From: Raillietiella orientalis
Lineage: Eukaryota
Length of the DNA stretch: 64,000 bases
Direction of reading: 5' to 3'
Assembly (NCBI GenBank): GCA_036172245.1
Contig: JAYWIR010000019.1
Coordinates: forward strand, 3,472,001-3,536,000
Shown: positions 1,849-50,919 of the stretch, in pieces
Numbering within the stretch: position 1 is the stretch's first letter
Layout: each line of letters opens with the position of its first letter
Notes under the pieces: generated by a model
What the model saw: only the letters and a program-made list of their open reading frames with translations
The model's database searches: none
What the model was told of the DNA's origin: nothing
Program-made: the position numbers and the translations under genes

Positions 1849-2050
1849 TAGATGGTGATGGAAAGCTCTCCCTTGTCGAGGACCAAGCCAGAAGGATCTC
1901 TGGTAGAGATCCCACCTTGAAAATTAATCGTAAAAAGTGAATGTAGGAACGAAAGACCAATGAAACCATTTCGTCACCGAGGGTGCCCTCCGAAGTTTCC
2001 CTCAGGATGGCTAACATCGGTCCAAGAGAAAGGAAAATGGAGTCTCATTT
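1849..2050 (+). pseudogene. Heavily decayed 28S rRNA fragment
   Basis: Retains LSU motifs 'aggaccaagccagaagg..tctctgg', 'taggaacgaaagaccaat' and 'ccctccgaagtttccctcaggatggct'. The following 'gaaaatggagtctcat' matches the 28S copy near 47470. Confidence 0.65.
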
Positions 2051-12294: not shown

Positions 12295-12935
12295 GTGAAA
12301 ATCCTTCTGGGTCTTTCCTTTTCTCGCTGCTTTCCCCCCCCAGTTTGTGGTTCGCCAAGTGCTGAAGAATAGTTCATCTCCTTAGGGAGAGGTCACAAGG
12401 CACTGGCCACGCCGCCCGAGGGTTTGTGCAACTCTTAAAGTTGTAGGGGACCACCCCGGAAGGACTACTCTATGAATTCGGGAATGTTCTGGAGAAAAGA
12501 GTCCGTTCCTCTCACCCTTGGGAGGAAACCCCGAAGGGAACCTCTCGCTTATTTTCTCCGAAGGGACCCCTGGAACAGGTTTCTTTTCATTTTTTCTCCG
12601 AAGGATCCCGGAAAGGATCCATTCCTGGAATTTCTTCACCGGAGGGAACCCGCAAGGGAACCTTTCCCTCTTTCCTCCTCCTCCGAAGAGAACTCCGAAG
12701 GGACGCTTCCCAATTTTCTCTGAAAGGTCGCTTTTGAAGGGATCAGTGCGCTTCGCACCCTGGAGATACGAATTCCCGAGGGGTGCACCAACCAGCTCCA
12801 TGGTACGGATCCAGTTTCTTAGCCTCGACGGCAACCGGCGTTCCTTGATTCCTGGAAGGACACCAGAGGGTCAACTTGCAGTGCCGGCCATTCGAGGGGA
12901 GACCCGGTTTCCAGTTTCTATCAATGCTTCATCCG
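12295..12935 (-). mobile_element. Body and 3' part of the tRNA-headed SINE-like repeat (head at 14012-14172)
   Basis: Reverse complement aligns by eye with ~58690-59400. Contains repeated 'ccgaagggaacc'-like subunits. Confidence 0.65.
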
Positions 12936-14011
12936 CCTCTCGAAAGGTAGTGCCTGGCTGCAGAAAGCCATTCGTACGTGGGCAAGAATCCAGGAACCAT
13001 GCGCGGAACAGGTGCGACGTTTCCTGTACGCGTGCAACAGCAACTGCATGTTCCAGGAGATCCTGGAAGCTCCAGCGAAGAGTGCGTGAGCAAGCAGAAC
13101 CTCCCTTGCCGTCTCACTGCCCTTCCTTAAGGAGCACATGGACAACAACCTTGAGGCTAGATGGAAGGTTACTGTGGGAACCTCCGGAAGCAGAAAAGGA
13201 CTGGACGAGTGGACGACGAGTGAACTCACCGACGCTGCGACCCCGAGTGCTCAGCCTCGCAAACTGTTGCGCTGGGGCGTGTTACTGGGTATTCTGGAGG
13301 AAGACCTGCAGTGGCCGCCGATGCTCATGAACATCCGCATTCTCCCCTGAAAGTGGCAGGGGTCGGCATTGATGCTCCCGTGCTGCAACGCCTGCAGGTA
13401 TCATTGGACACGAGGGAAGGGGGTAGACCCAAACTGTGCAAGGTACCTCCTAGTGGACTGTTTTCTCCTCCAGACCTTTTGGGGACGCTCTGCTCAGACC
13501 CTTGGATGTCTTGGCAACGGCAGAGACAATTGAAATCGTTTCTTCCTGCACGACGCCCTCACGACGGCCGCATCCCTAGCAGCACTTTGCTGCATACGCG
13601 GGATAGTGGCTGCATGGAGCAGCAACGCGAGTCCAGGACCACAGGAACGCCATTTATTCTGCTGTCCTCTTTATGAGAATAGCGTCAAGATGGTCCCGTC
13701 TGGGAGTTTTGAAAAAGGAACTTGACGTTATCCTTACAAGGATGCGGAGGACGCCCTTCAGCACACAATGATCCCTTCCCTAACCCCCTCTCCCATTTTT
13801 TTGAGTATATGTTTTTTGTTTTTTGTTTTATTTTTTTTCCTTTTTTGTCCCCCTTCCCCAGTGCTGCCGAGGCGAACCCCGCTGGCCCGTATGACAGTTC
13901 CCGGCAGGTTCCTTCTCGTAGCTATAAGTAACGTCGTGGGATCGGACGTCTTGCCATAGACATGTATGTTTATTTTTTATAAATAAACGCTCCGGCGTGA
14001 CCGGATGTCAA
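12936..14011 (+). mobile_element. 5'-truncated Tx1-like element inserted in the SINE-like repeat
   Basis: 'EWTTSELTDAATPS..LLRWGVLLGILEEDLQWPP' matches the other copies. Ends in the family terminus 'aaataaacgctccggcgtgaccggatgtcaa'. Confidence 0.85.
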
Positions 14012-14172
14012 CCATTGCCTCACTTGAAGCCCATAGGCCAACCGGCGCCATCTGCGAGGGGATCGGAACCCTCGACGGATCCCCCATCCAAGGCGTCGAT
14101 CCTTCCTCGGGTGGGAATTCGAACCTGCGACGCTTGATACCACGCGCAGAGTCCAGGCCTCCAGCGTGGACC
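14012..14172 (-). mobile_element. tRNA-derived head of the SINE-like repeat
   Basis: Minus strand carries a B-box-like 'caggttcgaattccc'. Homologous to 26887-26968, 56551-56700 and 58528-58700. Confidence 0.7.
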
Positions 14173-14439
14173 TCAGGTAATTTAAGACATGATGATCCTC
14201 TTCTTTGGAAGAACAGAGATTGAAACAACTGATCTCGGAAGTGAAAAATAGAAAATTAGAATGCAGTCTGCATATATCTTGAAAGTCCAGTCTCAAGTCA
14301 CGTGAGATTCATATTATGCTATTTCGTTTCTTTCCCATGAAATTCCTGCACCGACTCGGGACAGTTTGCTGAATTCAATGCAGGTGTTGATCTGCCCTGG
14401 GGGCAGCGAGCGTAGTAGGCGGAAATTATACAGCCAATT

Positions 14440-20018: not shown

Positions 20019-20811
20019 CTTGGCATCCCTTCTTGCGTACCTTAGAACAGAGCAGCTCGATGTCGTTTGCAATACACTCCGAGCCGTACGCATCGATTAT
20101 CATCATTTTTCTTTTTTCTTTTTCCCTCACTTTCCAGCCTCGATTTTTTATAGGCTGTTTGACTATTTAGTAGGGTTTTTGTGTATCTCACAGTTGCGAT
20201 TGTTCGTGCAAGTTTGTACATTAACCCGAATAGGAAAACTCAAGGACAAAAACTGCTGGCTTTATCCTTAGCAGGTCACGATAGAAACCGGTAGGCCGTT
20301 TTTGTCTCATGGTCCTGCTTTTGCTCTGGCAGACTTGGCGGAGTCTCATCTCAGGTGGAGCACAACTCGGAGAGGACGAAAGTGGGACGACTTACGAACG
20401 GGGGAAAGTTCCACGGGAAGCGAATGAAATCCGAGCACGACAACACGGTTCTGGTCGGTTAAATATGTCTGTTCCTGTCGTCGCGATCAAGTCGGCAATT
20501 GCAAATGGGAGATTGCGCTCATTCAGTGAGTAGAATGGGCGGCTCTCGTCACCCCATAATCGCGCCAATAGTGGTGGCATCTGATTTCGTTACGATTTAC
20601 ACGGGCTGAAGCACGCAACATCTGGAAGCTGCGTAAAAGGTCTCGTAGGGGAAAACAAGTTCACTTGATGGAAACATTACAAGAACGAGATGAACTCAAG
20701 GTGAGGAAAGTGCCGCCCCGTCAAACACTGGCTGCTGGTCGCACTGATTATGCAACTCTTGCGACGGTGCTTCCTTGCAGAATGCCATCATAACGTTGCC
20801 GGCGCATCGTA

Positions 20812-21537
20812 CTTCGCTGCCTGGGAGGACTTGAGGATTCCGAGTGCTGGTGCTTCGCTGCCTGGGAGGACTTGAGGATTCCGAGTGCTGGTGCTTCGCT
20901 GCCAGGGAGGACGTGAGGATTCCGAGTGCTGGTGCTTCGCTGCCAGGGAGGACTTGAGGATTCCGATGCTTCGCTGCCAGGGAGGACGTGAGGATTCCGA
21001 GTGCTGGTGCTTCGCTGCCAGGGAGGACGTGAGGATTCCGAGTGCTGGTGCTTCGCTGCCAGGGAGGACGTGAGGATTCCGAGTGCTGGTGCTTCGCTGC
21101 CAGGGAGGACTTGAGGATTCCGAGTGCTGGTGCTTCGCTGCCAGGGAGGACGTGAGGATTCCGAGTGCTGGTGCTTCGCTGCCAGGGAGGACGTGGGGAT
21201 TCCGAGTGCTGGTGCTTCGCTGCCTGGGAGGACTTGAGGATTCCGAGTGCTGGTGCTTCGCTGCCTGGGAGGACTTGAGGATTCCGAGTGCTGGTGCTTC
21301 GCTGCCAGGGAGGACGTGAGGATTCCGAGTGCTGGTGCTTCGCTGCCAGGGAGGACGTGAGGATTCCGAGTGCTGGTGCTTCGCTGCCAGGGAGGACGTG
21401 AGGATTCCGAGTGCTGGTGCTTCGCTGCCAGGGAGGACTTGAGGATTCCGATGCTTCGCTGCCAGGGAGGACTTGAGGATTCCGAGTGCTGGTGCTTCGC
21501 TGTTAGGGAGGACTTGAGGATTCCGAGTGCTGGTGCA
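20812..21537. repeat. Minisatellite, 41-bp unit, about 18 copies
   Basis: Head-to-tail unit cttcgctgccagggaggac(t/g)tgaggattccgagtgctggtg. Two units lack 7 bp. No spacers. Confidence 0.95.
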
Positions 21538-22938
21538 TCTGGAACTCTCGATCATTTCAGATGATGCCCGAACCGTGTTTTTAAGCTAATGTCTACACCG
21601 TAGTTTTCAACCTCTGATGCAATCGAAAAGCCTTCCATCTATTCTTGAACAGTGTTTTCAAGATGAACGCTGAGATGAGCACGTTTGTGTGTGCAGTTTT
21701 CGTTGGATAGCGTTAAATTGCAGTTTCAGAAAATTGATGGAATTTCAGTAAAATTAATAAGGCACTGATCTATGAATGAACGAAAGCGAAAGGCAAAAAA
21801 GAAAAAAAAAGGAGTGATTTAGTTGATTAAAAAAGGAAAATTACGAATAACATCTGAAAATTGGGAGAATGCCATTCCTGAAGAAGACTATAGAAGAGTC
21901 TAACGTTGAGGGACACCGCGCTGTGCCCTTGTAAATGCAAATTGCATGTATCTTTAAATTCAAGGCTGTTTTTTTTACTGATAATCGCAAACAAGCAATA
22001 AAACACAAAATCATGAACATTACATAAAGCCATGGGATCATATGCCATAATAGTGGCAACGATGACGTATATCGACTAACAGTTTGCATTCTCATCCAGG
22101 AAATAAGTTTGCTCCGTATTGCCCTAACATCTAGGCTTCAGCCATATTTGAAAGGAGCTTTTTAAAATGTGCATAACGCTGAATGGCAAGATATGAGAAA
22201 TTCATTGAGGAATCAGCATCGTCGAGAAGACACTGGATGCGACTCCATACCTTCGTGGTTAATTTACTCGGGGCGATCTCTGTGATTAGAGTGAATAATT
22301 TAGAAATACGTATACGCTCCTATACATGTTCACTTGAATTTCCAAGTGTAGCTGCATCCTCAATAAGGTCATAAACCTCAATACTGGTCGGAAATGCATT
22401 CCAGTCTTGGTAAGGGCTGCCAGCATGGTGGTAATCCCTCAGCTGTTTCTATTAAGCAGGATGTCTAACTACGGGCAAATCTGCAGATCAACTTTGGAAA
22501 ATATTCTGCTCAACGAACCTCAGTTCTTGCACGGGTTCCATTCTGGATGCCACTGCGGTTAAGAGCTTACCTGCTTTGTGTGATTAATTGTAACGTAAAC
22601 TGGTCTCAAAAAAAAAAAAATGTAAATTAAAGCGTGCCGTGTCATTCTTCGCGAAAAAGACGCAAGTTGCTAATTACCTCTCTAGGAGGGTGGTTTCAGG
22701 TTTCGTGCTTCTACTGCCCACTAATCATCTCTCTGCTCACCTCCGACACTTCCCACGTGAGGATGTCCAATGTCTGATGATATTTCGTTATTTGTAACGT
22801 TTGCAATCTCAAAAGCAGTAAATGTTGCGCAAATCAGCGGACCTCGCTCGTTGCCACCTGATGTTTGCTAGCGATCGAAATCCGCCAATTTCAAGCTCCT
22901 CTTCGACGGTTCCCTGCAAACCTCCGCAAGATCACTTG

Positions 22939-23460: not shown

Positions 23461-26400
23461 CTGCAAACCTCCGCAAGATCACTTGCCCACTCCATCGGGC
23501 CGATTGGGCCGTTGGGCCACCCATTCTGCGATCCCGTCGACAGCCGACGCCGCCGATATACAGCCCGGAACCGACGCGCTTTTGCAAAAACGAAAATGGC
23601 GGACGAAATCGAAATATATATATATATTTTTAAGTACAGGAGCGGCAGGAAGTGCGGTCTACAAGGATCCGTCTTGTGCAGATCGAATTTTCCAAAGAAT
23701 TTGAACAACCGAACATGAGCACCCTGTTTACAATCACGTTCAAAAATGGGGAGTTTTTGCGCGCCAGCAAAGTCCCCCTGGACTTCTGCTTTGCAAGGAA
23801 GTGTTCGTGGCTTGGTATCAAAAGGGAAACATGACCATTTGGGACAGAAAGGAAAGACGCAGATCAGCCTTAAACGTGCTGTACTTTATTCACTGGTTCC
23901 CTCTTCGGTGAGGAAGGAATTAATGCGTTCCGGGGAAGCTAATCGCTTCCCCAGCACAGAGTCTCCGAGGAGGAGAGACAGACAAACGTGATTGGGAATC
24001 GCCCAACCAGCGTTCGTTCCAGAGTTTCCAAAGGTCACTTTTCCGTGACAGTGTTAAACTTGGTTCGTGGTGCATCCCAGTGACGGCGAGCTCTTTTTTC
24101 GTGCGCTTTCTGTCTTTTGGCCCAGACTTCCGTTCACCAGTCCTTTCGGAAACGAAATGCTCGAGGATGCTGGATTCGAAATTTCAATGGAACTTCAAGA
24201 AACGTATCTGCACGAGCCATCTCAAGAACGTGATGGAAGCACTGCAGAGAGAGCCCCGAAGAACTGCGTGTGCTGCCTTCTAGGGATGAACACCCACCTA
24301 AGCAAACATACCCCATTCAGCCACGTGGACAACTCCCTTTTCTGCACTTGAAAATGGGCATAGGCGTGCATCGAGAACAGGAGCACGCTGGAGGCACAGT
24401 CAGCACACTGGAAGGGAGGGAGGAGAGAAAGTTGTCGTCCAGATGGATACCGAGAATGGACGACGGAGGAGTTGCCGATCTCACGGAGCATTCAAATGGC
24501 CGAAATAGAAATTCGCTATTGTCCAGGGAGATCCGTGCGCCATCAGTGTTTTCTTTCCACCTGGTTAGCAGGAGCAAACACTGCTCTTCCTGCTAAACAC
24601 GTGACGGTCGCCCCCGGATGTGGAAAGTGATGCCCTGACATGCTACCCTCTCTGCACAGCACCTTTCCACGATGGCGGCTCGAATGCATGAAAAAAGAAA
24701 AAGAAAAGATGCGACTACTTCAGAAATAAATTTTATTCGAAGGCTCTTTTTTTCTTCCTTCCAACCTTTTTTTTTTTTTTTTGTCTTCTCCCAGCCTCCC
24801 CGTTTGGCAACTTTGAGTTTTTGCAATGTGTCAGAGATCCCAAGTCTGCGAAGTGCGATTTATAACTCCATTGGAGATTAAAAGAGAGCAACTTTGTGAC
24901 AGCATAATGCTGCTAGGTATTTGAGCCAGCACGGATAAGCAAACTCTGAATGAATCTAATAGGAACTAACCTAAAAAACTGCTCAGTTTTTAATGACGGA
25001 AAACAGCAATAAATCAAAACATCCCTAAGTAAAGCAATTTAAACTGGAAGCTCGATTCACACGTGGCAACTCTACCGGAGATCATTACTAGGAATGTTCT
25101 AGTTTCGAAAGCAATATCTTAATTGCTCATGATTAATTCAACACTGAAATAGGCAAGAGGGAGCTTGGAGAATCGGCGACCCTGTCGAGTAATTTCGAAA
25201 TCCCCACCGCGCCCTAAAACAGGAGGAGGGAGGGGGACACGAAGAATAGAGGCCGGGAATGAATAAGGGGGTTTGCGATCTTCAGTTCGAAGATATCGAG
25301 TTCAGTATTGCCAGCTCAGAGGTTTTCCCTATACATCTAGCGCTTTGGGAAACCCCTCTAGCGGCCAAAAGCATTTTATCCCTCCGAGAGGGAACTCTAA
25401 CACTTTTTAAATCACTAGTCGCCGCCGAATCCTGCAGGTTTTGCATGGTCGCAAGGAAAATTTTCAATTATGGATGCTGTAGATAGTCTTAAACAGAATT
25501 CCGGGTATTTCATCCACTCCTGTTCCAATTTTGGCGGATGTGGAGTCGCATCAATAAATTACTACATGGTTCATAAAGGGAAAACGACTTTTTTTAATTA
25601 TTAAAATACTTTGATATTTAAATTGTGATTCTTGTAGTGCAGCGGCAACTAATTTGGGCATTTCATTACTATTTCCAGACTGTTCCAGCGTTTTCTTTCG
25701 ATTATAGGTAATATAAGACCGGCAGTGCGGCCCTCTCCATACAAACGTATAGAGCATGCGCAGCAGTCGCTTAATAACATAAATTCCACGTGATCAGCAA
25801 TTAATATTTCTTGCCAGTTTGCATTTTATTTTCGTACTACTGAATCTGAAGATTAGATGGCACTACGCATGCTGGACGTGTGCTGTGATATAGAGGGAAT
25901 CTGAAAATTTTTTTTTGGAAAATCGCGGGTTTCTCGAAGGCAGGATTCCATTAACTTGTGTTGGCAACCCTGATCGGGCACCACATTCGGAAATGCAAGT
26001 TGACATGAACGTACGTAAATACACGAGTTGGCATTCAAAAAATTTGAGATCGAGGTGATCGTAAAATCGGTCAGAGCACCGGTCGGTCAAAAAGGCTCTG
26101 CACGTTAAAAATCACATATGAACGAGGAATATGGAAGTTGGGGTAGCGAATCGCGTTTGCTGTCGCCGTTTTCGATCGTCGTCGGTGGCGCTAACAGCCA
26201 CCCACTTCCTTCCCGAAGTGCTCCTGATAGTGCCGTGGACTCTTCCGATGCTGACAGCAAGAAACAGATGTCATCTGTTTCGTTGCAACTCCCCTGAGTG
26301 ACATCCAGTTCCAAGCAGCGTGTCGCTGTTCAGCTCTTTCGTTTTTTTTTCACTCTGTCTCTCCAGAGCGATTCGGCGGCAAAGTGTTCCCTGAATCCTC

Positions 26401-26968: not shown

Positions 26969-28561
26969 GCTTTTTTTTTTTTTTTTTTTCGATCGACTCC
27001 TTTTGCTCGCAGAGATGCGGTCATCCTGTCACCTTTCTCATGAAGCAGCAGACAATTGCGAGGACCTCACCGTTTGACCGGCCTCTTTCGGCGCGGCTTC
27101 TCGCCTCCGCAATCCCACGGAGGCAGCAGCACGGAGCTGCAAGGGAAGCTGCAGGCGACATCGAGTCGCGCCGTGAAGAGGAATCGCAAGACCTCCCTGC
27201 CGTTGTCCATCGGGAGTGGGAGGGCCTCAGCGAAGCGTTCCTGGACACTCAGGATGGCAACACAATCCAGCAACAGGAGCGAGAAGATTTCCCGTTCCCC
27301 GCACTTGGCACAATCCAGGACCACACCCCCTCTTGTTCAGCGGTGAACTCTTCTGTCGCATGGGATCGCCCGGTGCAACAACTGCAATGCCGAGTGCAGC
27401 CATTTAAAAGGAAGCGTGTAGAGCTGCTCACAAGCACTGGGATAATTTCTAGCTCTTCAGGAGGAACGTCCAGGAGTTCTACCCAGCGAAGAATTCCTTT
27501 GGGAAGAGAGGCAGGAGGGGGAGAGCATGCGTCAGCCAGCTGAGGCGCCGTCCAGCATTCCAGCTGCTTCTTTTTTCCCGCAACTTCTCAGGATACTTCC
27601 CATCTCTCAAGGCCATTGCCATGTCCACCTTGTGACATCGTGTTGAGCGCGGCTTCAAGAGGGGTATCCCATGTCCGGGTGCCTTCCTTAAGCAGCCCAT
27701 GGTTTCCTGCAACGGGCAGCGAGCATAGTTCGAGAATCGCATGCATCGCTATGGCTCCGGGCTCTTTTCACCCAGACGAACTGCTCCCTATTTCCAGGCA
27801 CTGTAGTTGGCGGAGCGGCAGGAAATCCAACTGTTCTCCTGAAACAAGGCGACCACTTGCCAGTGCTGGCACTTTCATCGGGGCGACTCTCGGTGACCAT
27901 GCACGAGGAACGTAAAGAGTCCTTCAGCACCAGCTGCTCGCTTGGTCAGGAGTCTGGCTGAGGCTCACCAATGATTGGCTTGGAACCTAGCCGCTAGGAC
28001 TAGTCTTCTACTCTAGAGCTGACTCTCCATGCTCTCCAGCGTCAGCACGCCGAGAGCAGCGTCCCAACATGGCGCGCACAAGTCCTTCGAGCGGACCCGA
28101 GACCTCTGAGGTCGCCAGAAGGTTTTTCGCAGGAGGTCCTTGGTGCACTTTTTTTACATCTCGTAGCAGAGTGAAAACAAAAAGCATAGGTTGGAGAAAA
28201 AGCAGGAGGGAGTTGCCAACATCCTCCAGAGGATGCTGAGGATGCGAGAAAGAAATCTGTGATCCCTTCCCCCCCAAAAAACATTTTAAAACCAAACTTG
28301 TGTTGTTAGCGATTTTTTTTGTGTGTGTTTGTGTTTTTTGTTTCTGTTTACCTCTTCCCCCTCTCCTACTGTGCGGACCTCACGGGGAAGCTGCTCATCG
28401 AGGAGCAGTGCCTCTGAGGCGGCATTTTCCTTTGTAGTGGTGATGTGAAGAAACTACGAAGAAAGATATTTTTAACATTTTATATGATTGTTCTTATTGT
28501 AAATATTGATTTTTTTTTTTTTTCTTACAATAAACGTCTCGTCATGGCCGGGTGAAAATAA
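26969..28561 (+). mobile_element. Tx1-like element with a 5' inversion (~27000-28190 minus, ~28190-28561 plus)
   Basis: The minus part ends at '..PHLCEQKE' and the plus part resumes at 'QEGVANILQRM' plus 3'UTR ending 'ccgggtgaaaa'. TSD aggatcgact at 26959-26968 and 28562-28571. Confidence 0.75.
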
Positions 28562-28656
28562 AGGATCGACTTTGAGAACGGGGAGTGCGTAGTGAGTTTC
28601 GATTACCTTCCGCAGGATGACGCTGACTGCCCTACAGGCATCGGACGCGGCACTGG

Positions 28657-29474
28657 TTGACACATGGTCACGCCGGGGCGTTTATTATAAAATAAACATA
28701 CATGTTTGTGGCAGAATGTTAGATCCCCGCGAACGGTGGTGCCTGGTAGCAGGAAACCTTTCGAGAATCCAGGAGCCAAGCTAGGAATAGTTGCGACGTT
28801 TCCTGTACGTGCACAACAACAACTGCACTCTCCGGGAGATCCTGGAAGATCCTGCTAAGAGTGCGTAGGCAAGCAGAATCCTCCCTCTCCGTCACACTGT
28901 CCTCCCTTAAGGAGCACATGGGCAGCAGCCTTGCGGCCAGATGGAAGGCTACTGTGGGAACCTCCAAAAGGAGAAGAGGACTAGGCGAGTGGACAGCGGG
29001 TGAGCTCACCGACGCTGAGACTTTGATTGCTCGACCTCGCGGACTTTTGCGCCGAGGCGTGTTACTAGGTATTCCGGAGGAAGACCTGCAGTGGCCGCCG
29101 GTGCTCATGAACACCTGTACCCTCCCCTGAAAGTGGCAGGGGTTGGCATTGATGCTGCTGCAGGTCTGAGGTCTCCCGTGCGGCAACGCCTGCAGGCATC
29201 ATTGAACACGAGGGAAGGGGGTAGACCCAAACTGTGCAAGGTGCTGGGAGTAGGATTCCCTCCCGTACCTCCTAGCGGACTGTTTTCCCCTCCAGTCCTT
29301 TTGAGGACGCTCTGCTGAGACCCTTGGATGTCTTGGCAACGCCAGCGACATTTGAAATCGTCTCCTCCTACACGACGCCCTCACGCCGGCCGCATCCCTA
29401 GCAGCACTTTGCTGCATGCGCGGGATCGTGGCTGCATGGAGCAGCAGCTCCAGAAGAGGCCCGAAGGACAGAGT
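28657..29474 (-). mobile_element. Tx1-like element with an inversion: 3' terminus 28657-28727 (minus), ORF2 segment ~28728-29474 (plus)
   Basis: ORF 28861..29130 matches 13138..13350. TSD gcggcactgg (28647-28656) and gcggcactag (29475-29484). Confidence 0.75.
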
Positions 29475-31693
29475 GCGGCACTAGTGGAAACCGGAAACCA
29501 AATGCCACAGTTGACTGGCCGGGATTGAAGTGGACCCTCCGGGGTCTTTCGAGGAATCAGGGAGCCGTTTCCCTTCAGGGTTCTCCTCCGGCTGGGAAAA
29601 AGGAAGCAGTGCAGGAAATGCAGATGGCTTATATAAAGAATCGGTTTGGTCTTCGCTCACAAGCACTGCCGACTTCCTGAGAATGGATTTGCGGGGCTGA
29701 GGGATTTCTCTGCGACTGCTCACGGACCTCCTTTCGCTCAAGCAGCCGAGCCTTAAGTCGCAGTGTGATTTTCCAGGAACGAGGCTGTGAAAGTTCATCG
29801 AGATGGAGAACGAAGGGAGCAAGAGAAAACTGTACCTGACGTGTGACCTTCAGCTGTGCGCCACATTCGTCTTGTCATGTCTGCGCCACATGAAAAATGC
29901 CTGCCACTAGTCACTTAGTTATGTCGGGTGCTGCCAACCTGCTGTCCCGATCTCCGACAGGATGTTGGAAAATGTAGCTGAAGTTCGGATCGCTCTTGAG
30001 GATGAGACACCCGCGAGCGCAGCATTTGTTTGCTTTCCATAGCCAAGGAACACCCTTTGTGCGATCGTTTCGTACTATGATTCGTGTCCACGGGGAGATC
30101 CATAATGGCGCCGTAATTAACATGGATGCAGATGGACCCGTGTGCTGGCTGATTATGCGAGACCTTTCACTTCACTCTGAGATAGCTGCTCACACACCTC
30201 GTGTGCTTGCAAATTCTGGAGTCTGGAAGCGTGCAGTTCGATTCCATGCAGTTTGAACACTTTTTACGCTTTTCTTTTTTTTTTAAATTTCATTTTCAAA
30301 ATCACCCCTTATTATTCTGCAAAAACTTCTATTCCAGAATTACTCCTTCGGATCATTCTCTTTCACTTACAGACGAACGGGATTCAGATGTCCATCATTA
30401 ATGATCTCCCAGCAACCACGAAACCAATTTAATTTTTTTCGCGAGGAATCGCTATTTACCTTCAGTTTTTTGATGCGAATAAAAATTTGCCTTGTCTGTC
30501 CTAAATTTTCAAATTTTCAGTGCGACCTTCAAATTTTGATCTACTGCAGAGTCCCCGCATTCTAATGGAACCGAGACGAAGTTTCTACTTCTTTTTGTTG
30601 TGCAGGCACCGCACTACTCGTTATTTATGGGTACCGGGAAAATAAGGATGAATATTTCCCATAACGCCAACCGAGCTATACTAACCAGCTACTACGGACG
30701 AGTGATGAATTGGTCACTAAAATGGATGATTGCGATAGCTTTGTGCTTGAAGACAGATCGCGCAATCAAATGGAAGGTTCCCTCGTCTTCCACGAGTTCC
30801 CAATTCATTTCAGTCGATAGCTGAGAGGTTTCGCTGATCCAGCAGGGAGAGATGGAGACTCCTGCGGCCTGCCAATAAACGGCAATTTGAGAACTCGGAA
30901 AAGTTTTCAAATGCAGATTGCAAGAGATCGGAGCAAGAAGGTGAAGATGTGTTTGCTTTCCGGATCCAGATTCGTGCAGAAAGGGACTCCGAGAAATCGT
31001 CGAACCCTTAGGGGGTGCTTACGTTGAACGAAAGAAGGAGAGGAAGGGGGGGGGAGGAAGAGTACATCCCAGTTCTCAGAGAGATGCAGATCACGTGATA
31101 CAGGTTGCGATGCTGCTCGATTCCCCAAAGCGAGCAGATGAGAAATTACACTCCGCCGTGTGAGCCTGGGGAGTGCACACCTCGAGGATCAAAAAGCCGC
31201 TTTACCGAACCACCTGAAGAGGGGAATCGTGCAGTGATAATGACCGTCGCAATACTTTCTAATATTTGCAGTAGTAAGAGCATGCGCAGTACGGACTTGT
31301 TTGGTACTTGCGAAGTGGTCCAGAGGCACGTGCCTGGGCAGACTTTCTCTGCAGAGCAGGATTTCGGAGGCGAGCGGATGGAGTACCATTTCCGAATTTG
31401 TTCGATAGCGATTGTTCTACAATGCCTTTAGGATAGATTTCAGAGCCGTCCTGCATGCCATTTCTCTATCGCGCATCACGACGAAAAGCAACGGCTGCAG
31501 GAAAGCAGAGGCGGAATCAATCGGGTGCCCCAAGGAAGCGGCGTGCCGAATCGGAATGAGGTGGAGGCGTGCTAATTCATTTCCCAAGATGGACATTTTT
31601 CTCGTAATTTGAACAACCCCCTTCCCGGGGAACTGACTTGTTTCACCCAAAGGATGCGGATGCTCGAAGTCATCCGTCACAGTGGATCCCAAA

Positions 31694-40800: not shown

Positions 40801-43800
40801 TGGGCGCCCGGGACTCCCGTCCTTGGGAGTGTGGCGCATTCTACGAGGATGGTGTCATCCACCGTCCGCACCCATCGTCCGCCCGCAGCTCACGTGGAGG
40901 GATGCTCATTAGTGGCAGAACAAGATCAAAGCGTTTCTCGGAGGAGGAAAGTCGACGGAGGAAGAGGGGAAAGCTGCGCATTCTACCCCCACTGCCTAGT
41001 CAACGCCATTCCGAAGAACAGCTAATTCCGAGGTTCGCGTGAGACAAGGAGGACAACCGGGGAGGATGGGAGCGGGGGATCGAGCCGGCTGCAGATAGGA
41101 TGCGAAGTCTCCCTCTTCAGAAGCAGCACCTGAGGCAGCACCTACCTCCCTCTTTCCCTTCGAGAGAACGCCCCGGGAGATCGTCCGCCTACGCTCATGC
41201 CAGGGGAAGCGGCAGGCTATTTTTAGACCTGCTGCTGTAGACGCCGTGAGAGTGACACCAATCGGGAAGAGGAGTCCCGCATAGTAGCATCCGGAAGAAT
41301 TGCCCGACCTTCACTTTTTCCCACGGATCGAAGGACAGGAAACTCAGCACAGGCAGTTTTTCGCGCGGAGGCAGCGGCAAGGGTAAGTCAGCCGTGCTCT
41401 TCGTCTTTAGCAAGGGAGGGATGAAGCGTCGCTCACGATCTTGAGGTGGCCCTCGATCTGACACCGATCGGTCGCCGACTGGAACAAAGTGCGCGGTTGG
41501 CGGTGCCGGAAGGGTCGGGCAACCAGCAGAAGAGGCTCTTTCGCGCTCTCGGGACTTGCATCGAGCAGTCGCTAAGAAGACGGTTGCGAAGGATGCAGAA
41601 GGCGCGCGGATTCTCGAAGAACGAGGAAAGGGCGCCTGGATCAGACGGTCTCTGAGGCCAAGCAGACACGTTCTCAACGGATCGATAAACTGGTGGAGAG
41701 GCAACTCGGAAAGAAAACGCCTCTTCATCCCGCGGGATCGCGAGAGGACTCGTAGGCACCTGCCGAGCTTTCCTCGAGGACCAGCGTCCCGAACATCTTG
41801 CAGGCCGGACTAGGGACGCGCTGGATGCCGGGCAGGCGACAGCGCGAGCTGTTCGAGCGCAGAACGAAGCGGGGAGACGGGCAAAGGAGAAGATGGCGGC
41901 AAAGAGAGGACGGGCGGGGGATGAGTGGATACTCGGTGAGCCGTCCCTGGATCTGCCTGCTGTATCCCGTGCACAGAGGTACAATCTGCCAAAGAAAGGT
42001 GACACGAAATGACCCGGACGGCTTGCGTAGGACGCGACTATGGTCTTTGGGGGTGTCAGAAAGGGGCTGAAAGAGCAAGAAGGCGGCATCATGGGTGGGG
42101 TGTGTGCCATCTTCCTCCCCTTCCCCACTTCCCCCTTCCCATCTCCATCCTGGAAAGGAGTGCCGGAGGAAACGCGTTCACGTTTCTTCAGCACGGAAGA
42201 GGCAGACGTGTGCGTGGAGCCGCCGCCTTTTCGATCATCTCGCGCTTTTGGCGGCAGAGGACCGCGTGAGGAACGGGAGGCGGTTGTTCTGAGACTCCAG
42301 TTTGCAGGAAGAAGCAGCATTTCCTCGAGTGTCTCGCAACAGCAGCCGGTGGAGAGTTGGAGGCGGCGCTCTGAGCAGCGGCTCAGAGACGCACGCCAGA
42401 GGTCGGCTGCCTGCAAAACCCGCCTCCGGCGGCTTGTCCTCACAGTGGAAACCTCCATGGGTCGGATGCAGATCGACCAAGAGGGCATCCCGGCACATCC
42501 GCGTAGGGGTTTTCGGAAACGCGAGCAGAAAAGCCTGATGCCTACAGTCGGAAATCTTCGATGGTGGGGACGTTTCCCCTTCTGCCCTTTCGTTCCCATG
42601 GTTACCAGCTGCGAGGATCGGCTCACTCTGCTGCCCGAGTATCGCATCGACGCAGACGGGAAAATCTGTGGCGATGGCCCCCCGCTGTGCTCTCCACATT
42701 GATTCCCGAGAGAAGAGGGAGGATGCTTGCAGCCCTCTGCATGCCGAAGGTGGTGAGTGAGAGATGCAGAGTGTGCCGGGGTGCTGGGGTGGACCCAAAG
42801 CCTTGAGCACGGGCAGTATCACAGGCGAGGAAGGCGACTGAGCCGTGATTATTGCTAGTTGAAAACTTGACTCAAAGCCTTCTCGAGATGTTTCCGTTTC
42901 CGTGCAAGAGGCACGTCTTATAGAGAGCACTGGTTTTCCTGGAGTCCAGATGCGAAGTCCGTTGAAGCCTTCTTTGGTGGGGATTTATGGCAATCCAGGT
43001 GCTAGCATCTCTTAGGAACTTGTTCGACCCTCTCTCGCCCCTCTTTTCCAGTGACGTCAGAGCTTCGTAGTCATGGCACCGCTAAAGGTCGCTATCCAGC
43101 TGAGGGCTCCTCGAAGAGAACGCCCAATCGAAGAAGAATCGAAGAAGTCTGGGTTGCCAAGTCGTCAACCGGCGATTGAGGATCGGAGTATACTCTAGAA
43201 GGGCCTCAAGAAGTTGCAGATGCAGGTGCACATGCGCAAGAGAGGAAAAATACACCTCGAGGAAATAGGAAAGTCGCCCGCCAGTATGTAGCGAAGATGA
43301 TGCGGAAGTTGGAGATTTTCCGAGCAGACAAGTTTCCTGAGATGCATCTGCCGCACCGAGAGGAAGTAGTGGCACAGGCGGACGATGAAAAAACGACCAG
43401 GTCCGGTCCGTGGGCTCCTCGCCTTCACGTGGAGACAGCATCTGGATTGTGTTTCCAGGAAGCGCGCTGGTAGCCATGGAGGATACATTCTCACTTCCCT
43501 CTCATTCTCGATCCCTCGCAGAGAGGACAGCCAGCCGGGGAAGAGGATGGGTCTAACTTGAAAAGATAAGCAGGTGCTTGGAGGGGATTAGGAAAAAGAC
43601 CCTCAAGCGAGTAAAGCGCTGAGGCGAGGGAACCCAAAGTCGCTTGCGAACGCCTCTGGCCTAAAAGAATGAGAGGAGTCTGCGTTCATTCCCATGGCAG
43701 AGTAAGGGAAAGACGATGCAGGGCTGAAGAGCTGGGAGGAAAGGGACCGTCTTCGTCGTGAGTAGAGAGAAGGAGAGCACACTCTTTCATTAAGAGACTC

Positions 43801-44980: not shown

Positions 44981-45194
44981 CATCCAGCTATCCCAGAGGC
45001 TGGAGTTCTCCTACACGAAATAGGCGGCCGTTTCGTGTCCCCAACACACGATGGCAGCTTGGCGGTGACCGGCGGGCAGGCTTCAATCCTTCGTGATTTT
45101 GCATCAGGAAAGTTTCACTGAAGACTTATTTCTACGGTCCATCTCCAGTTTCCCCAAAACTGACTAGACGTTTAGCTTGCTCCCAGGGTCAGCT

Positions 45195-45335
45195 CTATTT
45201 TCCCAACCGGAGGGGAACCACGAAAGGAACCGGTGCTCCTTGATTCCCGGAAGGACCACTGAGGGTCAACTTGCAACCTTGGTTAGTCGACGGGGGTATC
45301 CAGGGGGTTTCCGGCTTCCACCAGTGCCGCACCGG
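45195..45335 (-). mobile_element. 3' half of a SINE-like copy whose head lies at 56551-56700
   Basis: 'ccttgattcccggaaggaccactgagggtcaacttgca..ggtttccggcttccaccagtgccgcaccgg' is homologous to 12843-12935 and to the reverse complement of 29475-29600. Confidence 0.7.
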
Positions 45336-47139
45336 CCATTTTGAAGTTGTCAAGTTTCGTATGCTATTTTAATCTCAATCTATGTTGACTAATAAATATG
45401 CCTTCGGTTGGAACTGCTATAAATTCAGCTCCTTTAGGTAAAACAACTCCGCTGTATGGAAAAAAACAGTAGGGATACTGAATCCCAGCTATATGCAGCA
45501 TTCAGAGTATCCTGCTATTACCAAACAAGATTCTGAAGCTGAACAGGAGGAAAAAAATGGAAAGAAGAAAAGGAGAAAAACCAGGTGGGATAATGACGAT
45601 AGAAAGGAAATTCTTATTTCTATCTATTATATTATCCATTTTTCCTTGCAATCTCTCTAAATCACGAGAAGAAGCATATATCATGTAGCTACAGATTGAA
45701 GAATTGAGTCGCATGCTTAGAACAAGTGACCTGGGAGCCCCGGTCAACCTTGATGAAAGGTCACCATCACCAGAACCAGTAGTGATGGCAAGCGGCTCAA
45801 CACTCGGGGATTTCGTACAAGGAAAAAAAAACTAGAAGATGACCGTCACATGCTGATTCAGAGACTGATGTGCATCAACATGGATTACAAACCACCAGTC
45901 ACTCGAGTGAGTGATAAGGTGATGATTTCTCAAGATACATATCCTGACATAAACTTTATGGGCTTGCTCATAGGTCCCCGGGGAAATATATTGCAAGCAA
46001 TGAAGGAGGATACTGGGATCAAAATTATCATTAGAGGAAAAGGATCCGTGAAGGAAAGCTTGGAAGGAAAGTTGGGCAGCCCTTAACAGGAGAGGATAAG
46101 CCTCTGCATGAATATGTTACTGCACATAACATTGAAAGTGTTAAGAAAGCGGTATATAAAATCGAAGAAATTATTAGACAAGGGACTGGAGTACCAGAAG
46201 GGCAAAATTATTTGCGCAGAAATCAGTTAAGAGAGCTGGCCTTGCTAAATGGGACACTGCGTGAATCAGATGGTTTTCGTTGTACCAACTGTGGTGCCAT
46301 TATGCATAAGTCTTGGCAGTGTCCTGAGAAACCCAACATGACTAACATAACACAGTACTGTGCAGTATCTGTAGGGGAGCTGGTCATATCAGTAAGAACT
46401 GCATGCAGAAAGGTGCTGGCGCTGAAGCATCTAATCTGGACAAGAGCAAAAACAGTTGAAGAGTATATGTCGCTAATGGCACAACTTGGTGAAGGGCCTC
46501 CTTCACCACAAAAGGAAGGCATGACTGCTGCTGCTAGGTCTCGTTTTATGGCAGCAGCATATACCTCAGTAACTCTGTTTGCTCCACGGGTGGCACCTCG
46601 CCAAGTTATGGCTCCACCTCCACAGCCACCAGGTCAAACTGAGTATCCTGAAGGTACAAAACTTGGCAGTCAGCACTGGTCTCAGCATCATCAACAATGA
46701 TGACTCCTTTAGCTCCCCCAGGTGTTTTCGGCTGGAAAATTTTGCCACGAATTCCACCAAGCGCTGCACCTCTACTGCCACCCTCATTACTTCAAGGGCC
46801 TCCTTCATCAACAGCTATGCTGGCTACTACTGGTACTCCTATGGTGAGCCATCTGCTCCAATTCCTCCTTGACATCAATCTCCTCCTCCTCTTCCACTGA
46901 GAATGTCCATGACTCCTTGGCAGAAACTTTCACCTCCACCTGTACCAATGCCACCTCCCAGAGCATCTCTAAATCCTGGTCAGCCACTTCCTTGGTTGCA
47001 AGGATATTCTAATATCCACAATCAGCACAAGTTCCATCCACGTCTTCTGAGAACATAGATTTAAACGCATTAGCACAGGCAGACCTTCCTAATTTTCTGG
47101 CATCTTCCCCACCAGCTCCACCTACTTGACTTGTTTCAT
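45336..47139 (+). pseudogene. SF1: Processed pseudogene of splicing factor 1 (branchpoint-binding protein)
   Basis: ATG 45398 'MPSVGTAINSAPLGK', then 'KKRRKTRW', 'RSPSPEP', KH domain 'YPDINFMGLLIGPRGN..IIIRGKGSVKE', QUA2 'QLRELALLNGTLRE', zinc knuckle 'CTNCGAIMHKSWQC' and a Pro-rich tail ending at TGA 47127-47129. Continuous with no introns; multiple stops and frameshifts. Confidence 0.92.
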
Positions 47140-48075
47140 GTACAACGATGCACTTTGTTCCCGGCGCGTCGGCGCGCGCGGGTGTCCGATCGCGCACCAA
47201 GCTGGGAAGATACGCCTGCGAGGGCGCGTACCTGTAGCGCGCACGCTGGGACCAGAAAGATGGTGAACTGCACCTGGCCAGGACGAAGCCAGAGGAAATT
47301 CTGGCGGAGGTCCGCAGCGGTCCCCATGTGCAAATTGGTCTGGCTGAGAGTTGGATATCTGATTCATGCAGTGTCCCATTTAGGAGCGAAAGACGAATCG
47401 AACCATCTGGTGCATACTGGTTCCCTTTGAAGTTTCCCTCAGGATGGCTGGCGCTCACTGAAGAGGAAAAGGAAAGGAGTCTCATCCGGTAAAGCGACTG
47501 ATTAGAGAACTTGGGGCCAAAATGACCTCAACCTATTCTCAAACTTGAAATGGGCGAGAAGTCCGGCTTGTTTGGAAGCTGGAGATCAACTATCAGATCC
47601 ATGAGCGCTCAGTGGGCCAATTTCGGTAAGCAGAACTGGTTCTGTGGAATGAACCAAGCGTTAGGTTACCGCGCCAGTTGCGACTCTCATCAGATCCTAT
47701 GAAAGGTGCTGGTTGCTATGGACAGCAGCACGGTGGCCATGGAAGTCGGAATACGCTAAGGAGTGTGTAACGACTCACCTGCCGAAGCAACTAGCCCTGA
47801 AAATGGATGGCGCTCAAGCGTCGAGCCTGCACCCAACCGCCGGGACAGAGCCGTTCCTGCCTTCCGGACACGTTCCATCGAGGAAGAGCTGGGCTCAGGG
47901 CTCAGAGGAAGAGGAAGGCTGGTTCCTCAGGTTCCATCGAGTAGGAGGGTAACGACGGTGTGCGCAGAATGGTTTGGGCGTGAGCTCGTCTGGAGCCGCA
48001 GTCAGCGCAGATCTTGGTGATATTAGCAAATACTCCATTGAGATCCTAGAGGTCTGATGTGGAAAGGGTTCCATG
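47140..48075 (+). rRNA. 28S rRNA pseudogene fragment (~0.93 kb)
   Basis: Conserved LSU blocks 'gaaagatggtgaact', 'gaagtttccctcaggat', 'acctattctcaaact', 'ggtaagcagaactgg', 'gctaaggagtgtgtaac.actcacctgccga', 'gcagatcttggtg' and 'agggttccatg', with many substitutions. Confidence 0.95.
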
Positions 48076-49590
48076 GTCTTTGAGCACGGTCCCTAGTCGA
48101 CCCCGAATCCTCGAAGAAATTTCCTGGTCTTCGTATGATAAGAGAAGGTTTTCTGGATTCTCCGGCTGGTTGTCGGTTTTCCTTGCGACGTGGGCTGCAT
48201 AGACATCACTGGAGTACCGGATGCACGAAGCCACTATCCGATGCCCCAGTTGCACCAATTTCTTTTTTGGGATTCCTAAATCTTGTAATACTTCATCACC
48301 AGGATAGCATGCTCCCAGAGAGCCAACGGTGAATGCTTGTAGTTTGCTTTGCTTTCCACCTTTTCCTAGCTGTAAGGCTATATCTTTGTATTTTCCTTCC
48401 TTGTTCTTCCTGACTGTGCTGAACGCCTCTCTTCCATTTTCCTATGGGCAGTAGACATCTAGCACACATACCTGGTTTCCTTATTTCATGACCAGGTCCG
48501 CTTCTAAGGTGGAAGCTCCTGGCACGATCTGGTTTCTTGACACAAGACTCCACTTTGTTTCATCCACTGTGGCCTTTCTGATGATTTCCTGAATCGCGCC
48601 GTGGAGTGCTATGGACAGAGAAACGTGTTTTTTTACATCTATTCATCATGTGGGACAACGTTTCGTCCTGTGTCCAGCAATGCCAACATATGTTTTTCTC
48701 TTTGTCCAATGTTGATTGGCAATACGTTGTCTTGCTGCGCGAATGAACTTGTAATCGTGAAATCTCAAGTGTTATCCATTGGTGTAGAAAAAGCTTGAGG
48801 CGTGATACACGTTGCATGGCTTTTCCTCCACTAATGTGATTTTGGATTAGGGACCGCCATGCGTCTTCCCTTTGCAGTGTTCTCACGCCGGTGGTAAGCT
48901 TTCTTCTCGTGCTGCTGGTGAAGATGACACCATCGACCGTTAAACCGTTGAAATTCCAGTGGATTTTCGCTCTTCTAGAGACCTTTCTTCCTTTTGACCA
49001 AAGGCTCTCTACGTCGTTTCCGGATAGTGCGGTTCTCCTGTATGAAATCCCCGTCATGAATTCTTCTAGATTTTCATCTGTCGGGCTTCGCGGATTCTTT
49101 TTTGGACCACTTGACCTAGTGTTTAATGCGTTGACCTTTTTACCGTGTTGTCTGGCAAGACGAGTAAATTGAAGCAGCCATGCATGGTAAACATGTCAGA
49201 CTCGGTAGGTAGCTTCATCAGTCCTAGGCAGACTTTGCTTCTTTCTCTCTTTCTCCGTACAGGTATTCATTAGTTGCCTAGGATGGAAGGTGCCAGGCCT
49301 TCTTAACTTTGCGTCTGATTTATTTATCTATATAGTGCCACTCTTCCTCTCGATGAGTTGCAAGCCTCTCGTAATGAACCAGGCTGGAAAAGAAGAAGGT
49401 TTTCATTGCATCCATCTTCTGGAATCCTGTTAGTTCATTATCTAGGATGGCACTTGCCTTCTGGCAAATATCCTCCTTGGACGGACACGAGTTAAATACC
49501 TTGAGACCGAAGGATTTCCCTAGGTATTTGCATGCCTCTGATAAGGCAGTACAAGAGATTTTCTCTTTTTTCACCTCAATGTGGATTTCT
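48076..49590 (-). mobile_element. NeSL/Utopia-like non-LTR element fragment with a restriction-like endonuclease (RLE)
   Basis: 'KYLGK..FQKMDAMKTFFF', 'SLWSKGRKVSRR', 'GKAM', 'RFHDYKFIRAAR', CCHC 'CWHCWTQDETLSHMMNRC' and RLE 'ADLVMK*GNQVCVLDVYCP*ENG..KEGKY..AFTVGSLG..IRYSSDVYAAH'. Truncated at both ends. Confidence 0.8.
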
Positions 49591-50919
49591 TTTGGCCCTC
49601 TCGGGGCTTTCCCGCTGTAGTACGACGATGCATACAGAGCCGCCGGTGACTTTAATGTACGCCTGGTGCCAGATGAGCCGGACCCAGAACAAAACCTAGT
49701 CAACGAGGTGTGCGTGGCGATGCACACACACAACTTGTTGGCCGAAGAATTGAAAATGGAGACCAGCATCTACCATGTCTTCCTTGATCAGTACCTGTGC
49801 TCCTGCGTGAGCAGGCGCAGCATGGTACGGTCGACGCTTCTGATCATTCCCGAACTGAGTTCGAAGTTCGACCGCGCGACAGGGGCCCTCCTCGGATGCG
49901 TGGAGTCTCCCAGGGAACTAGTTAAACCTTCCGGGATCCGTGGAACACCCCCGCGTGTTCTTACGGAGTTTTAGGCTTGAGGGCTGGGAGCGCTTCAAAC
50001 GCTCGGTCCGAGAGTTCTGTCAGCAGTTCCCCCTGGACCGCCTACATGCAGGCTTCAGAGTTTTCAACTAGCAATAATCGCGGCTCAGTCGCCTTCCTCG
50101 CCTACGATACTGCCTGTGCGCAAGGCTTCAGAGAGGGTGTCCATAACGAGCGGACATAACTGTGCGCCCGCCATTACAGCAGAAGCTTCATTAGCCCGAT
50201 ATCCGGAGGCTAGCAGAATACAGAGAGGGAGCTGAGACAAGCTTGGCGATCCGAGTCGGCCACCTTGCTGGACGACGAGGGCTGGGAGCCCTCGGCCCCG
50301 CACAGAGTAAGAGGCATAGTTTGCAAGTTATCCGGATCTGGATTTCGCAAGATTCGCGCTCCAGGAAGGTGCTCCCAGTGATCGGGGAGGAGCTCAGGAG
50401 AAGCCTCGACGAGCCTTTCTCGTCCAGTGAGATCATCACCGCGATCGGGAAGCTCAAGAGGCGTAAGACTCCAGGGAAGGATGGCCTGCCTTCGGAGTTT
50501 TTCCGATGCTTCGCGGCAGAGCTCACGTCCCTGGTACAGCAATTGACCTTGCTAATACGTGGCACAGCTTATTTTGCTCAGCTAAGGTAAGGCTCCTCCT
50601 CAAAGGTGGAGACCTCAGGAGCATTGGCTTCTGGCGGCCGATTACCGTGGTAAACGCGGTCGCTAAGTTTCTAGAGAAACTATGGGCGGAGAGGGCTAGG
50701 ACGAGTGGTGGAAAGCTTCATTAGCCCGAAGCAATCATATGCTGTTCCCAGGCGGAGCATGGACGCCAACCGGCTCTGTGCTAACACCTGGTTCGCGCTT
50801 CAACAGGAAAGGGAGATGATAGGCAACCGGAATTCCGGAGCGTCCGTCGGTCAGGGACGGGAAGGTCGGGCAGGGATGGGAGTTCTTGCGGCCTCAATTG
50901 ACTTGAACAAGGCGGTCGA
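49591..50919 (+). mobile_element. Tx1-like ORF2, 5' part (AP endonuclease C-terminal half and RT start)
   Basis: 'GDFNV' (49645), 'SDH' (49839), 'KTPGKDGLPSEFF', 'WRPITVVNAVAK', 'ISPKQ' and 'IDLNKAVD'. Confidence 0.88.

What the first reader, a model, noticed from the sequence alone, without database searches (positions are those of the whole stretch)
47357..47383. 27-nt inverted piece of SF1 embedded in the adjacent 28S fragment
Seen: 47357-47383 is the reverse complement of SF1 46245-46271 (ctaaatgggacactgc(g/a)tgaatcagat, 26/27). It interrupts the conserved rRNA segment GGxTAT|AGGGGCGAAAGAC and has 2-3 nt of microhomology at each side. Inference: a brief template excursion, during reverse transcription or later repair, that physically links the SF1 and rRNA pieces.
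Basis: partly seen in the sequence, partly recalled or inferred. Interest (0 to 1): 0.7.

Follow-up and report, generated by a model that had tools for sequence, protein, structure and literature searches.

The report
Backwards-copied repair scar in dead rRNA
A dead copy of a ribosomal RNA gene carries 23 extra bases copied backwards from a dead splicing-factor gene copy one kilobase away, which looks like an ordinary DNA-repair or replication scar with an unusually distant template rather than a slip of the reverse transcriptase.

Summary
Real. 47357-47383 is the reverse complement of 46245-46271 (26/27). The 27-mer occurs three times in the 210-Mb genome: SF1 retrocopy, insert, and the intron-bearing parent on another contig. 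The species' intact-looking 28S and all 32 other 28S copies reaching the site lack it. Net gain is 23 nt with 0-2 nt microhomology left and 2-3 right. The insert carries the retrocopy's allele, not the parent's. An excursion during first-strand reverse transcription fails on geometry: it needs antisense SF1, and that cDNA is made later. Best reading: a DNA-level template switch in cis after integration, polymerase-theta-type fold-back or a replication switch. Timing support is modest (likelihood ratio 1.6-18); an event while the insertion was being finished stays open. The 1.1-kb reach is atypical but within a described minority class. No other such event turned up in 38 other 28S copies or 533 kb of other DNA. 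No reads were listed, so read support is untested. The scan noted similar inverted scars on other genomes. Known kind of scar in dead DNA; low interest.

The parts
47359..47381 (-). 23-nt templated insertion, antisense copy of SF1 retrocopy 46247-46269; T at 47360 is the allele shared with the retrocopy, T at 47367 the private difference
47357..47358 (+). left microhomology (2 nt against today's rDNA; possibly none against the older rDNA allele)
47381..47383 (+). right microhomology (2 nt, or 3 nt counting 47381)
46245..46271 (+). donor tract inside the SF1 retrocopy; differs from the parent gene at 46268 (synonymous Ser codon, third position)
45335..47141 (+). processed pseudogene of SF1/BBP: nine parent introns missing, frameshifts and stops, ends 12 nt after the stop codon without poly(A); 8.2% diverged at 0-fold sites
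47142..47158 (.). 17-nt linker of unresolved origin between SF1 and 28S
47159..48120 (+). decayed 28S-alpha rRNA retrocopy; 3' end at L029 position 3288, between the two markers of the protostome hidden break (3222, 3347); 10.3% from today's rDNA, 59 of 834 differences private
47877..47909 (+). second, 33-nt insertion in the same 28S copy, a patchwork of short local repeats
47401..47409 (+). 9-nt inverted match to SF1 46267-46275, overlapping the donor end and 20 nt from the insertion; possible tether, weak
45187..45334 (.). left part of a high-copy SINE-like repeat, ending in the left copy (45320-45334) of a degenerate 15-nt target-site duplication
56550..56704 (.). right part of the same repeat family, beginning with the right copy of the duplication (56550-56564, 11 of 15 alike)
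48120..49613 (-). truncated high-copy LINE-like repeat abutting the 28S 3' end ('RLE type' is my reading of motifs from recall and note e1-7514127; Pfam found no family on its three ORF pieces)

Best explanation
A DNA polymerase made a short switch-and-return in cis after both retrocopies were in the chromosome. Most simply: a break fell in the dead 28S copy at 47358/47382; resection left more than 1.1 kb of single-stranded top strand; its 3' end folded back on the SF1 retrocopy with 0-2 paired bases, copied 23-25 nt, let go, and used the new terminal 2-3 nt to anneal to the other end, after which the gaps were filled (polymerase-theta-type inverse-repeat templated insertion). Shown: the insertion, its donor, orientation, junctions, the allele shared with the retrocopy, and a polymerase-theta-like gene in the genome. 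Inferred: the break, the resection, the enzyme and the timing. It has no function; it is a scar.
For: Only two possible donors in the genome, and the insert matches the neighbour at the one site where they differ. Retrocopy and parent differ at 92 of 1118 0-fold and 28 of 292 4-fold sites (Fisher p 0.48), so most differences arose in the retrocopy. Donor and insert differ at 1 site where about 4.1 would be expected if the scar were as old as the retrocopy (P 0.085). Combined likelihood ratio for post-integration 1.6-9.6, or 2.7-18 if a copying error of 1 in 30 is allowed. The donor is on the side and strand a fold-back of the resected top strand would reach (sequence shown directly). Short first and longer second microhomology and an inverse-repeat class are described for polymerase theta (PMC7165422, section 7 part 1); 2-3% of worm delins come from more than 1000 bp away, single-base priming suffices and about 1 base in 30 is miscopied (PMC5068794, passages). 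A family-A polymerase whose best solved relatives are polymerase theta (E 3e-29, against 1e-16 for polymerase I) is encoded at C11. The same copy has a second, patchwork 33-nt insertion whose start repeats sequence just downstream, including two bases derived in this copy.
Against: Polymerase theta templates lie typically within 30 bp, first tracts are rarely over 10 bp, and distal templates were under 0.1% of repair in mouse cells (PMC7165422); here 1085 nt and 23-25 nt. The shared allele is at a synonymous site: A/T exchanges are 4 of 498 at 0-fold and 3 of 216 at 4-fold A/T sites, and T>A 0 of 178 against 3 of 118, so a change or polymorphism in the parent is quite possible, which gives the low end of the ratio. 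Two of the three insertions of 15 nt or more among 39 copies fall in this one copy, which may point to a single messy episode, possibly at integration. The sequence cannot tell break repair from a replication switch.
Confidence: 0.45

Rival explanations
1. Replication template switch after integration (MMBIR/FoSTeS-like, inter-strand). On a leftward fork the nascent bottom strand stalls at 47382, pairs 2-3 nt on the unwound lagging-strand template 1.1 kb ahead, copies 25-27 nt and returns. A 9-nt match 20 nt behind its 3' end could have held it there.
For: Inverted, microhomology-flanked insertions that return to the same place are the described signature (PMC8421209, passages and section 10 part 1; PMC5453318, passages, which finds inter-strand switches and none intra-strand). 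Little or no target DNA is lost. The 9-nt match overlaps the point where copying stopped and is perfect only with retrocopy alleles (6 nt with the parent's). All timing evidence fits equally.
Against: The 9-nt match is not significant after the fact: P 0.013-0.11 by window size. The cited surveys cover templates within 100 bp or one fork. It needs over 1 kb of uncoupled single strand.
Confidence: 0.28
2. It formed while the retro-insertion was being completed: during second-strand synthesis or gap filling the growing top strand jumped to SF1 sense sequence (its own earlier part or displaced mRNA) and back; or the 28S cDNA was made beside an SF1 copy already in place and strayed onto that DNA.
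For: SF1's 5' end lies exactly where LINE-like insertions break this SINE family, and a degenerate 15-nt duplication brackets the 11.2-kb block; SF1 (8.2%) and 28S (7.1% private) are of similar age. Two large insertions cluster in this copy. R2 cDNA ends prime synthesis on cDNA or nearby target DNA in cells (PMC11371274). Background events of this kind are rare in older DNA.
Against: Needs the parent to have carried A then, and donor and insert to have stayed 26/27 alike over an 8% age (likelihood ratio 1.6-18 against). Described snap-backs lie at 5' junctions, not inside a segment with return to the same base. The top strand would already be paired and the SF1 mRNA already released.
Confidence: 0.21
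3. First-strand reverse-transcriptase excursion from 28S rRNA to SF1 and back.
For: The genome holds many 28S retrocopies (278 candidates), 30 of 39 examined ending at the hidden-break position, so the enzyme was promiscuous.
Against: Template switching between RNAs gives same-sense pieces (PMC13174262, passages); this piece is antisense. Antisense SF1 would have to come from the parent's DNA on another contig or from an antisense RNA, and the insert has the retrocopy's allele.
Confidence: 0.03
4. Assembly or read artefact.
For: No read evidence could be examined.
Against: The insert is not an exact copy of any sequence in the assembly, is short, returns to the next rRNA base, and lies inside a 3.7-Mb contig.
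Confidence: 0.03

Closest known systems
Polymerase-theta templated insertions, inverse-repeat class (PMC7165422, passages and section 7 part 1; PMC5068794, passages)
   Same: Short insertion copied from DNA on the same side of the break in reverse complement, short or absent first microhomology, 2-3 nt second one, one mismatch, polymerase gene present.
   Different: Template 1085 nt away instead of within about 30; single tract of 23-25 nt instead of 10 or fewer; little or no deletion. It matches only the distal minority (2-3% of worm delins).
MMBIR-type templated insertions, MMB-TI (PMC8421209, passages and section 10 part 1)
   Same: Inverted copy, microhomology at both junctions, return to the original place, fixed in the germ line.
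   Different: That survey defines templates within 100 bp; here ten times further.
Four-point short template switch (PMC5453318, passages)
   Same: Leave, copy a reverse-complement fragment, return; makes a new inverted repeat.
   Different: Modelled as short-range within one fork; 1.1 kb is outside what it treats.
Chimeric LINE retrocopies with 28S rRNA or mRNA (PMC13174262, passages) and R2 cDNA snap-back (PMC11371274, passages)
   Same: Describes the surroundings: sense 28S and mRNA pieces 5' of a LINE, within a target-site duplication.
   Different: The insert is antisense, internal, and its donor lies on the side not yet copied during first-strand synthesis.

Membership tests
Polymerase-theta templated insertion | Insertion of 3-30 bp identical to DNA of the same locus | tested here: met
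   23-25 nt, 26/27 identity
Polymerase-theta templated insertion | Template typically within about 30 bp of the break | tested here: not met
   1085 nt; only the distal minority class fits
Polymerase-theta templated insertion | First synthesis tract rarely over 10 bp | tested here: not met
   one tract of 23-25 nt
Polymerase-theta templated insertion | Short or no priming microhomology, longer resolving microhomology | tested here: inconclusive
   2+2 against today's rDNA, 0+3 against the older allele
Polymerase-theta templated insertion | Inverse-repeat insert primed from a hairpin on the same end | tested here: met
   donor is 5' of the site on the top strand, in reverse complement; geometry only
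Polymerase-theta templated insertion | Genetic dependence on polymerase theta | not testable with these tools
   a theta-like gene is present; dependence cannot be read from one fossil event
MMB-TI / short template switch | Inverted copy with microhomology and return to the same place | tested here: met
MMB-TI / short template switch | Template within 100 bp or one replication fork | tested here: not met
   1085 nt
Reverse-transcriptase template switch between RNAs | Captured piece in the same sense as the other templates | tested here: not met
   antisense to SF1 and 28S; rule
cDNA snap-back at retrotransposition | Donor lies in cDNA already made (3' in RNA terms), at the 5' junction | tested here: not met
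   donor lies 5' and the insert is internal
28S-alpha retrocopy (host of the insert) | 3' end between the two hidden-break markers, shared by dispersed copies with unrelated flanks | tested here: met
   30 of 39 copies end at 3275-3290, markers at 3222 and 3347; the break itself was not shown in RNA
Processed pseudogene (donor) | Parent introns removed, reading frame decayed, no purifying selection | tested here: met

The most novel reading that the evidence does not exclude
The distant template was chosen by an internal 9-base anneal 20 nt behind the 3' end, a tether that sets both where copying starts and where it stops, and the same episode also wrote the 33-nt patch 500 nt away (whose best match in the window, 14 of 15, is again inverted SF1 retrocopy 1000 nt upstream with a retrocopy-only allele). 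The locus would then record one polymerase hopping over about 1.5 kb of single-stranded DNA, possibly the unfinished chimeric retro-insertion itself, and genomes full of rRNA and mRNA retrocopies with known originals would be a natural assay for kilobase-range template switching.
Probability: 0.12. Interest if true: 0.5.

Novelty: new member of a known kind. Interest (0 to 1): 0.2.

Why it matters
Little by itself: a neutral scar in dead DNA. It is a clean natural example of the kilobase-range inverted class of templated insertion, because both donor and recipient have known originals, so length, junctions and order can be read. It also corrects an inference: such a scar shows that two pieces were neighbours, not that they were reverse-transcribed together. 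If tethering by internal matches held genome-wide it would explain how a 2-base primer finds a template a kilobase away.

Tried and rejected
Sequencing runs: none was listed for 45300-48300; this is no evidence either way, and no reads were laid. Rfam on 19 loci failed internally; rDNA extents were taken from blastn against L029 instead, so C371 is called intact-looking from its sequence, not from an Rfam scan or from RNA. Idea that the 28S pieces are 3' tails of the LINE at 48120: rejected, the 19 copies examined have unrelated flanks. Idea that the linker is the SINE's continuation, making SF1 and 28S separate insertions: 15 of 22 match, P 0.018 against random 26-mers, but part of the match is explained by 28S and the family's right part lies at 56547; dropped, linker unresolved. 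CpG decay as the cause of the private difference: CpG transitions 7 of 62 against 53 of 757, p 0.21, not shown; a copying error is as good. A 9-nt-primed fold-back from 47409 would leave a 25-nt duplication that is absent, so it needs a second exact deletion; not adopted. A tree of 30 of the 28S rows (those over 740 nt) was star-like and did not place the window copy. No second full SF1 retrocopy exists to polarise the T/A site. Pfam gave hits on 2 of 11 ORF pieces. The organism was not identified. Literature searches listed no paper on this locus or on such insertions between neighbouring retrocopies; the library lacks most subscription papers, and no supplements were read.

Full report
Observation. 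The inverted pair is present as described: 46245-46271 and 47357-47383, 26 of 27 complementary, 1085 nt apart, with a chance expectation near 1e-6. The right arm lies in a decayed large-subunit rRNA fragment. The window is C19:3472001-3536000 of a 210-Mb animal genome in 491 contigs; the organism was not identified.

Recipient. Contig C371 (L029) holds a 5.8S-ITS2-28S stretch that looks intact. Against it the window has a 23-nt insertion at 47359-47381 with 2 shared bases on each side and no loss. A search with the fragment gave 278 candidates, of which 40 were scored; I examined the window copy and 38 others, 29,176 aligned bases. None of the 32 others reaching the site has the insert. Thirty of the 39 end at L029 3275-3290, between the two markers of the protostome hidden break at 3222 and 3347 (markers from PMC6925239, passages), and the 19 checked have unrelated flanks. 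They are therefore best read as retrocopies of mature 28S-alpha (inference; notes e1-7511018 and e1-7509948 saw the same end elsewhere in this genome). Older copies share alleles absent from today's rDNA. One lies at the junction: 18 of 21 old copies read G, 0 of 10 young ones. The window copy has many of the old alleles but not all, so the junction is either 2+2 nt microhomology without loss or blunt plus 3 nt with 1 nt lost.

Donor. 45335-47141 is a processed pseudogene of the SF1/BBP gene at C50: nine introns gone, frame broken (family). With up to two mismatches the 27-mer occurs three times in the genome: retrocopy, insert, parent. The insert differs from the retrocopy at one base and from the parent at two; at the informative site it sides with the retrocopy.

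Setting. A lead from note e1-7514127, which I checked in part: the left part of a high-copy SINE-like repeat ends exactly at SF1's 5' end, the right part begins at 56550, and 15 nt are duplicated, 11 of 15 alike. A LINE-like element on + ends at 56549 and breaks another SINE copy at the same site at 12947-14008. So SF1, and probably the 28S piece, came in sense orientation by LINE machinery ('Tx1' and 'RLE' labels are from that note and my recall; Pfam confirms only RVT_1 and zf-RVT on the minus-strand element). Whether all 11 kb came at once I did not settle; the 17-nt linker is unexplained.

Geometry. First-strand cDNA is the bottom strand and grows leftwards, 28S before SF1. At 47382 it would have to add SF1 sense letters from an antisense template that has not yet been made. 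RNA-to-RNA switches give same-sense pieces (PMC13174262, passages) and cDNA snap-back copies what lies to the right (PMC11371274, passages). First-strand excursion is therefore very unlikely. What remains is a DNA-level switch: the top strand folding back on itself, or the bottom strand crossing to the other bottom strand at a fork, or the same during completion of the insertion.

Timing. Differences from the parent are 92 of 1118 at 0-fold and 28 of 292 at 4-fold sites, so the parent has changed little and the shared A is probably retrocopy-derived. Against this, T>A changes are 0 of 178 at 0-fold and 3 of 118 at 4-fold sites. Donor and insert differ once where 4.1 differences are expected at the retrocopy's age (P 0.085). 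A three-branch likelihood gives 1.6-9.6 to 1 for post-integration, 2.7-18 if the one difference may be a copying error. This is a lean, not a proof.

How common. Among 39 copies there were 126 insertions, 14 of 7 nt or more and 3 of 15 nt or more; two of the three are in this copy, and no other had a long match at kilobase distance (best other, 13 nt at 27 nt). A scan of 597,369 bases for isolated matches of 20-80 nt at 90% or better within 5 kb gave 8 candidates: 2 inverted (this one and one with a 32-nt gap) and 6 direct, 4 of them multi-copy; a Markov control of 928,000 bases gave 1 inverted and 2 direct. Outside the window (533 kb) there was no inverted match at more than 100 nt. The event is uncommon in this genome, not an everyday product.

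Mechanism. Polymerase theta writes inverse-repeat insertions from a hairpin, with weak first and stronger second microhomology, usually from within 30 bp and under 10 bp long; distal templates were under 0.1% of repair in mouse cells (PMC7165422, section 7 part 1) and 2-3% of delins in worms (PMC5068794, passages). The genome encodes a theta-like polymerase. The insert is 13 of 23 A+T against 46% for 47001-48000, in the described direction but weak. The neighbouring 33-nt insertion looks like iterative local copying. I give break repair by fold-back 0.45, a replication switch 0.28 (PMC8421209; PMC5453318), completion of the retro-insertion 0.21, first-strand excursion 0.03, artefact 0.03. A 9-nt inverted match that overlaps the donor's end and lies 20 nt from the site could have acted as a tether, but its P is 0.013-0.11 by window size.

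Verdict. It works like a polymerase-theta or MMBIR-type templated insertion; it fails the typical distance and tract-length features of both, so it is filed as a distal example of the known kind and not as a proven member of either pathway. Similar inverted scars were noted by the scan in other genomes, one also about a kilobase from its donor (e1-7940847; not checked). PMC10923293 was read in passages and adds only that theta fillers can come from other nearby molecules. The other papers in the search listings were seen as listings only. Dead DNA, known process, modest oddity: interest 0.2.

Noticed in passing
window 47877-47909: Second insertion of 33 nt in the same 28S copy: starts with a repeat of sequence just downstream that includes two bases derived in this copy, holds a 7-nt tandem repeat, and ends in a 14/15 inverted match to SF1 retrocopy 46887-46901 with a retrocopy-only allele; a 9-nt local direct repeat explains that end as well. 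A 10-nt stretch also equals the rRNA just left of the 23-nt site (seen by eye).
   Followed up: partly
G000 28S copies L010-L027, L058-L077: Hundreds of dispersed 28S pieces; 30 of 39 end at the hidden-break position and most begin near L029 2460-2490, just 3' of a GC-rich expansion segment. The retrocopies map the likely 3' end of 28S-alpha without RNA data.
   Followed up: partly
same copies, about 20 sites: Old copies share alleles missing from today's rDNA, mostly towards G or C, some at positions I recall as near-universal; a record of an older or second rDNA type, or of a pseudogene master.
   Followed up: partly
window 22914-22938 and 23461-23485: Exact 25-nt direct match 522 nt apart with unrelated flanks and no other copy in the sample; a long target-site duplication or a direct templated insertion.
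   Followed up: partly
window 12803-14177, 28561-29604, 45187-56704; L048, L053: The same SINE-like family is broken at one position by related LINE-like insertions, suggesting a site-specific element that targets the SINE.
   Followed up: partly
window 42799-42941, 49988-50127, 60383-60487: Two U4 and one U6 snRNA copies; in L048 a U4 piece sits inside the 3' end of the LINE-like element.
   Followed up: no
window 1941-2307: A second, much older 28S fragment, 65% like 47378-47748.
   Followed up: no
window 50905-51415 and 53998-54508: A 511-nt direct duplication at 94% around a minus-strand LINE-like element.
   Followed up: no
L063, at L029 position 2776: A 48-nt insertion in another 28S copy with no donor found within about 3 kb.
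   Followed up: partly
G000:C50:446033-446118: An 86-nt, 87% copy of part of SF1's last exon about 4.5 kb downstream of the parent gene.
   Followed up: no
window 20809-21539: Tandem array with a period of about 41 nt.
   Followed up: no
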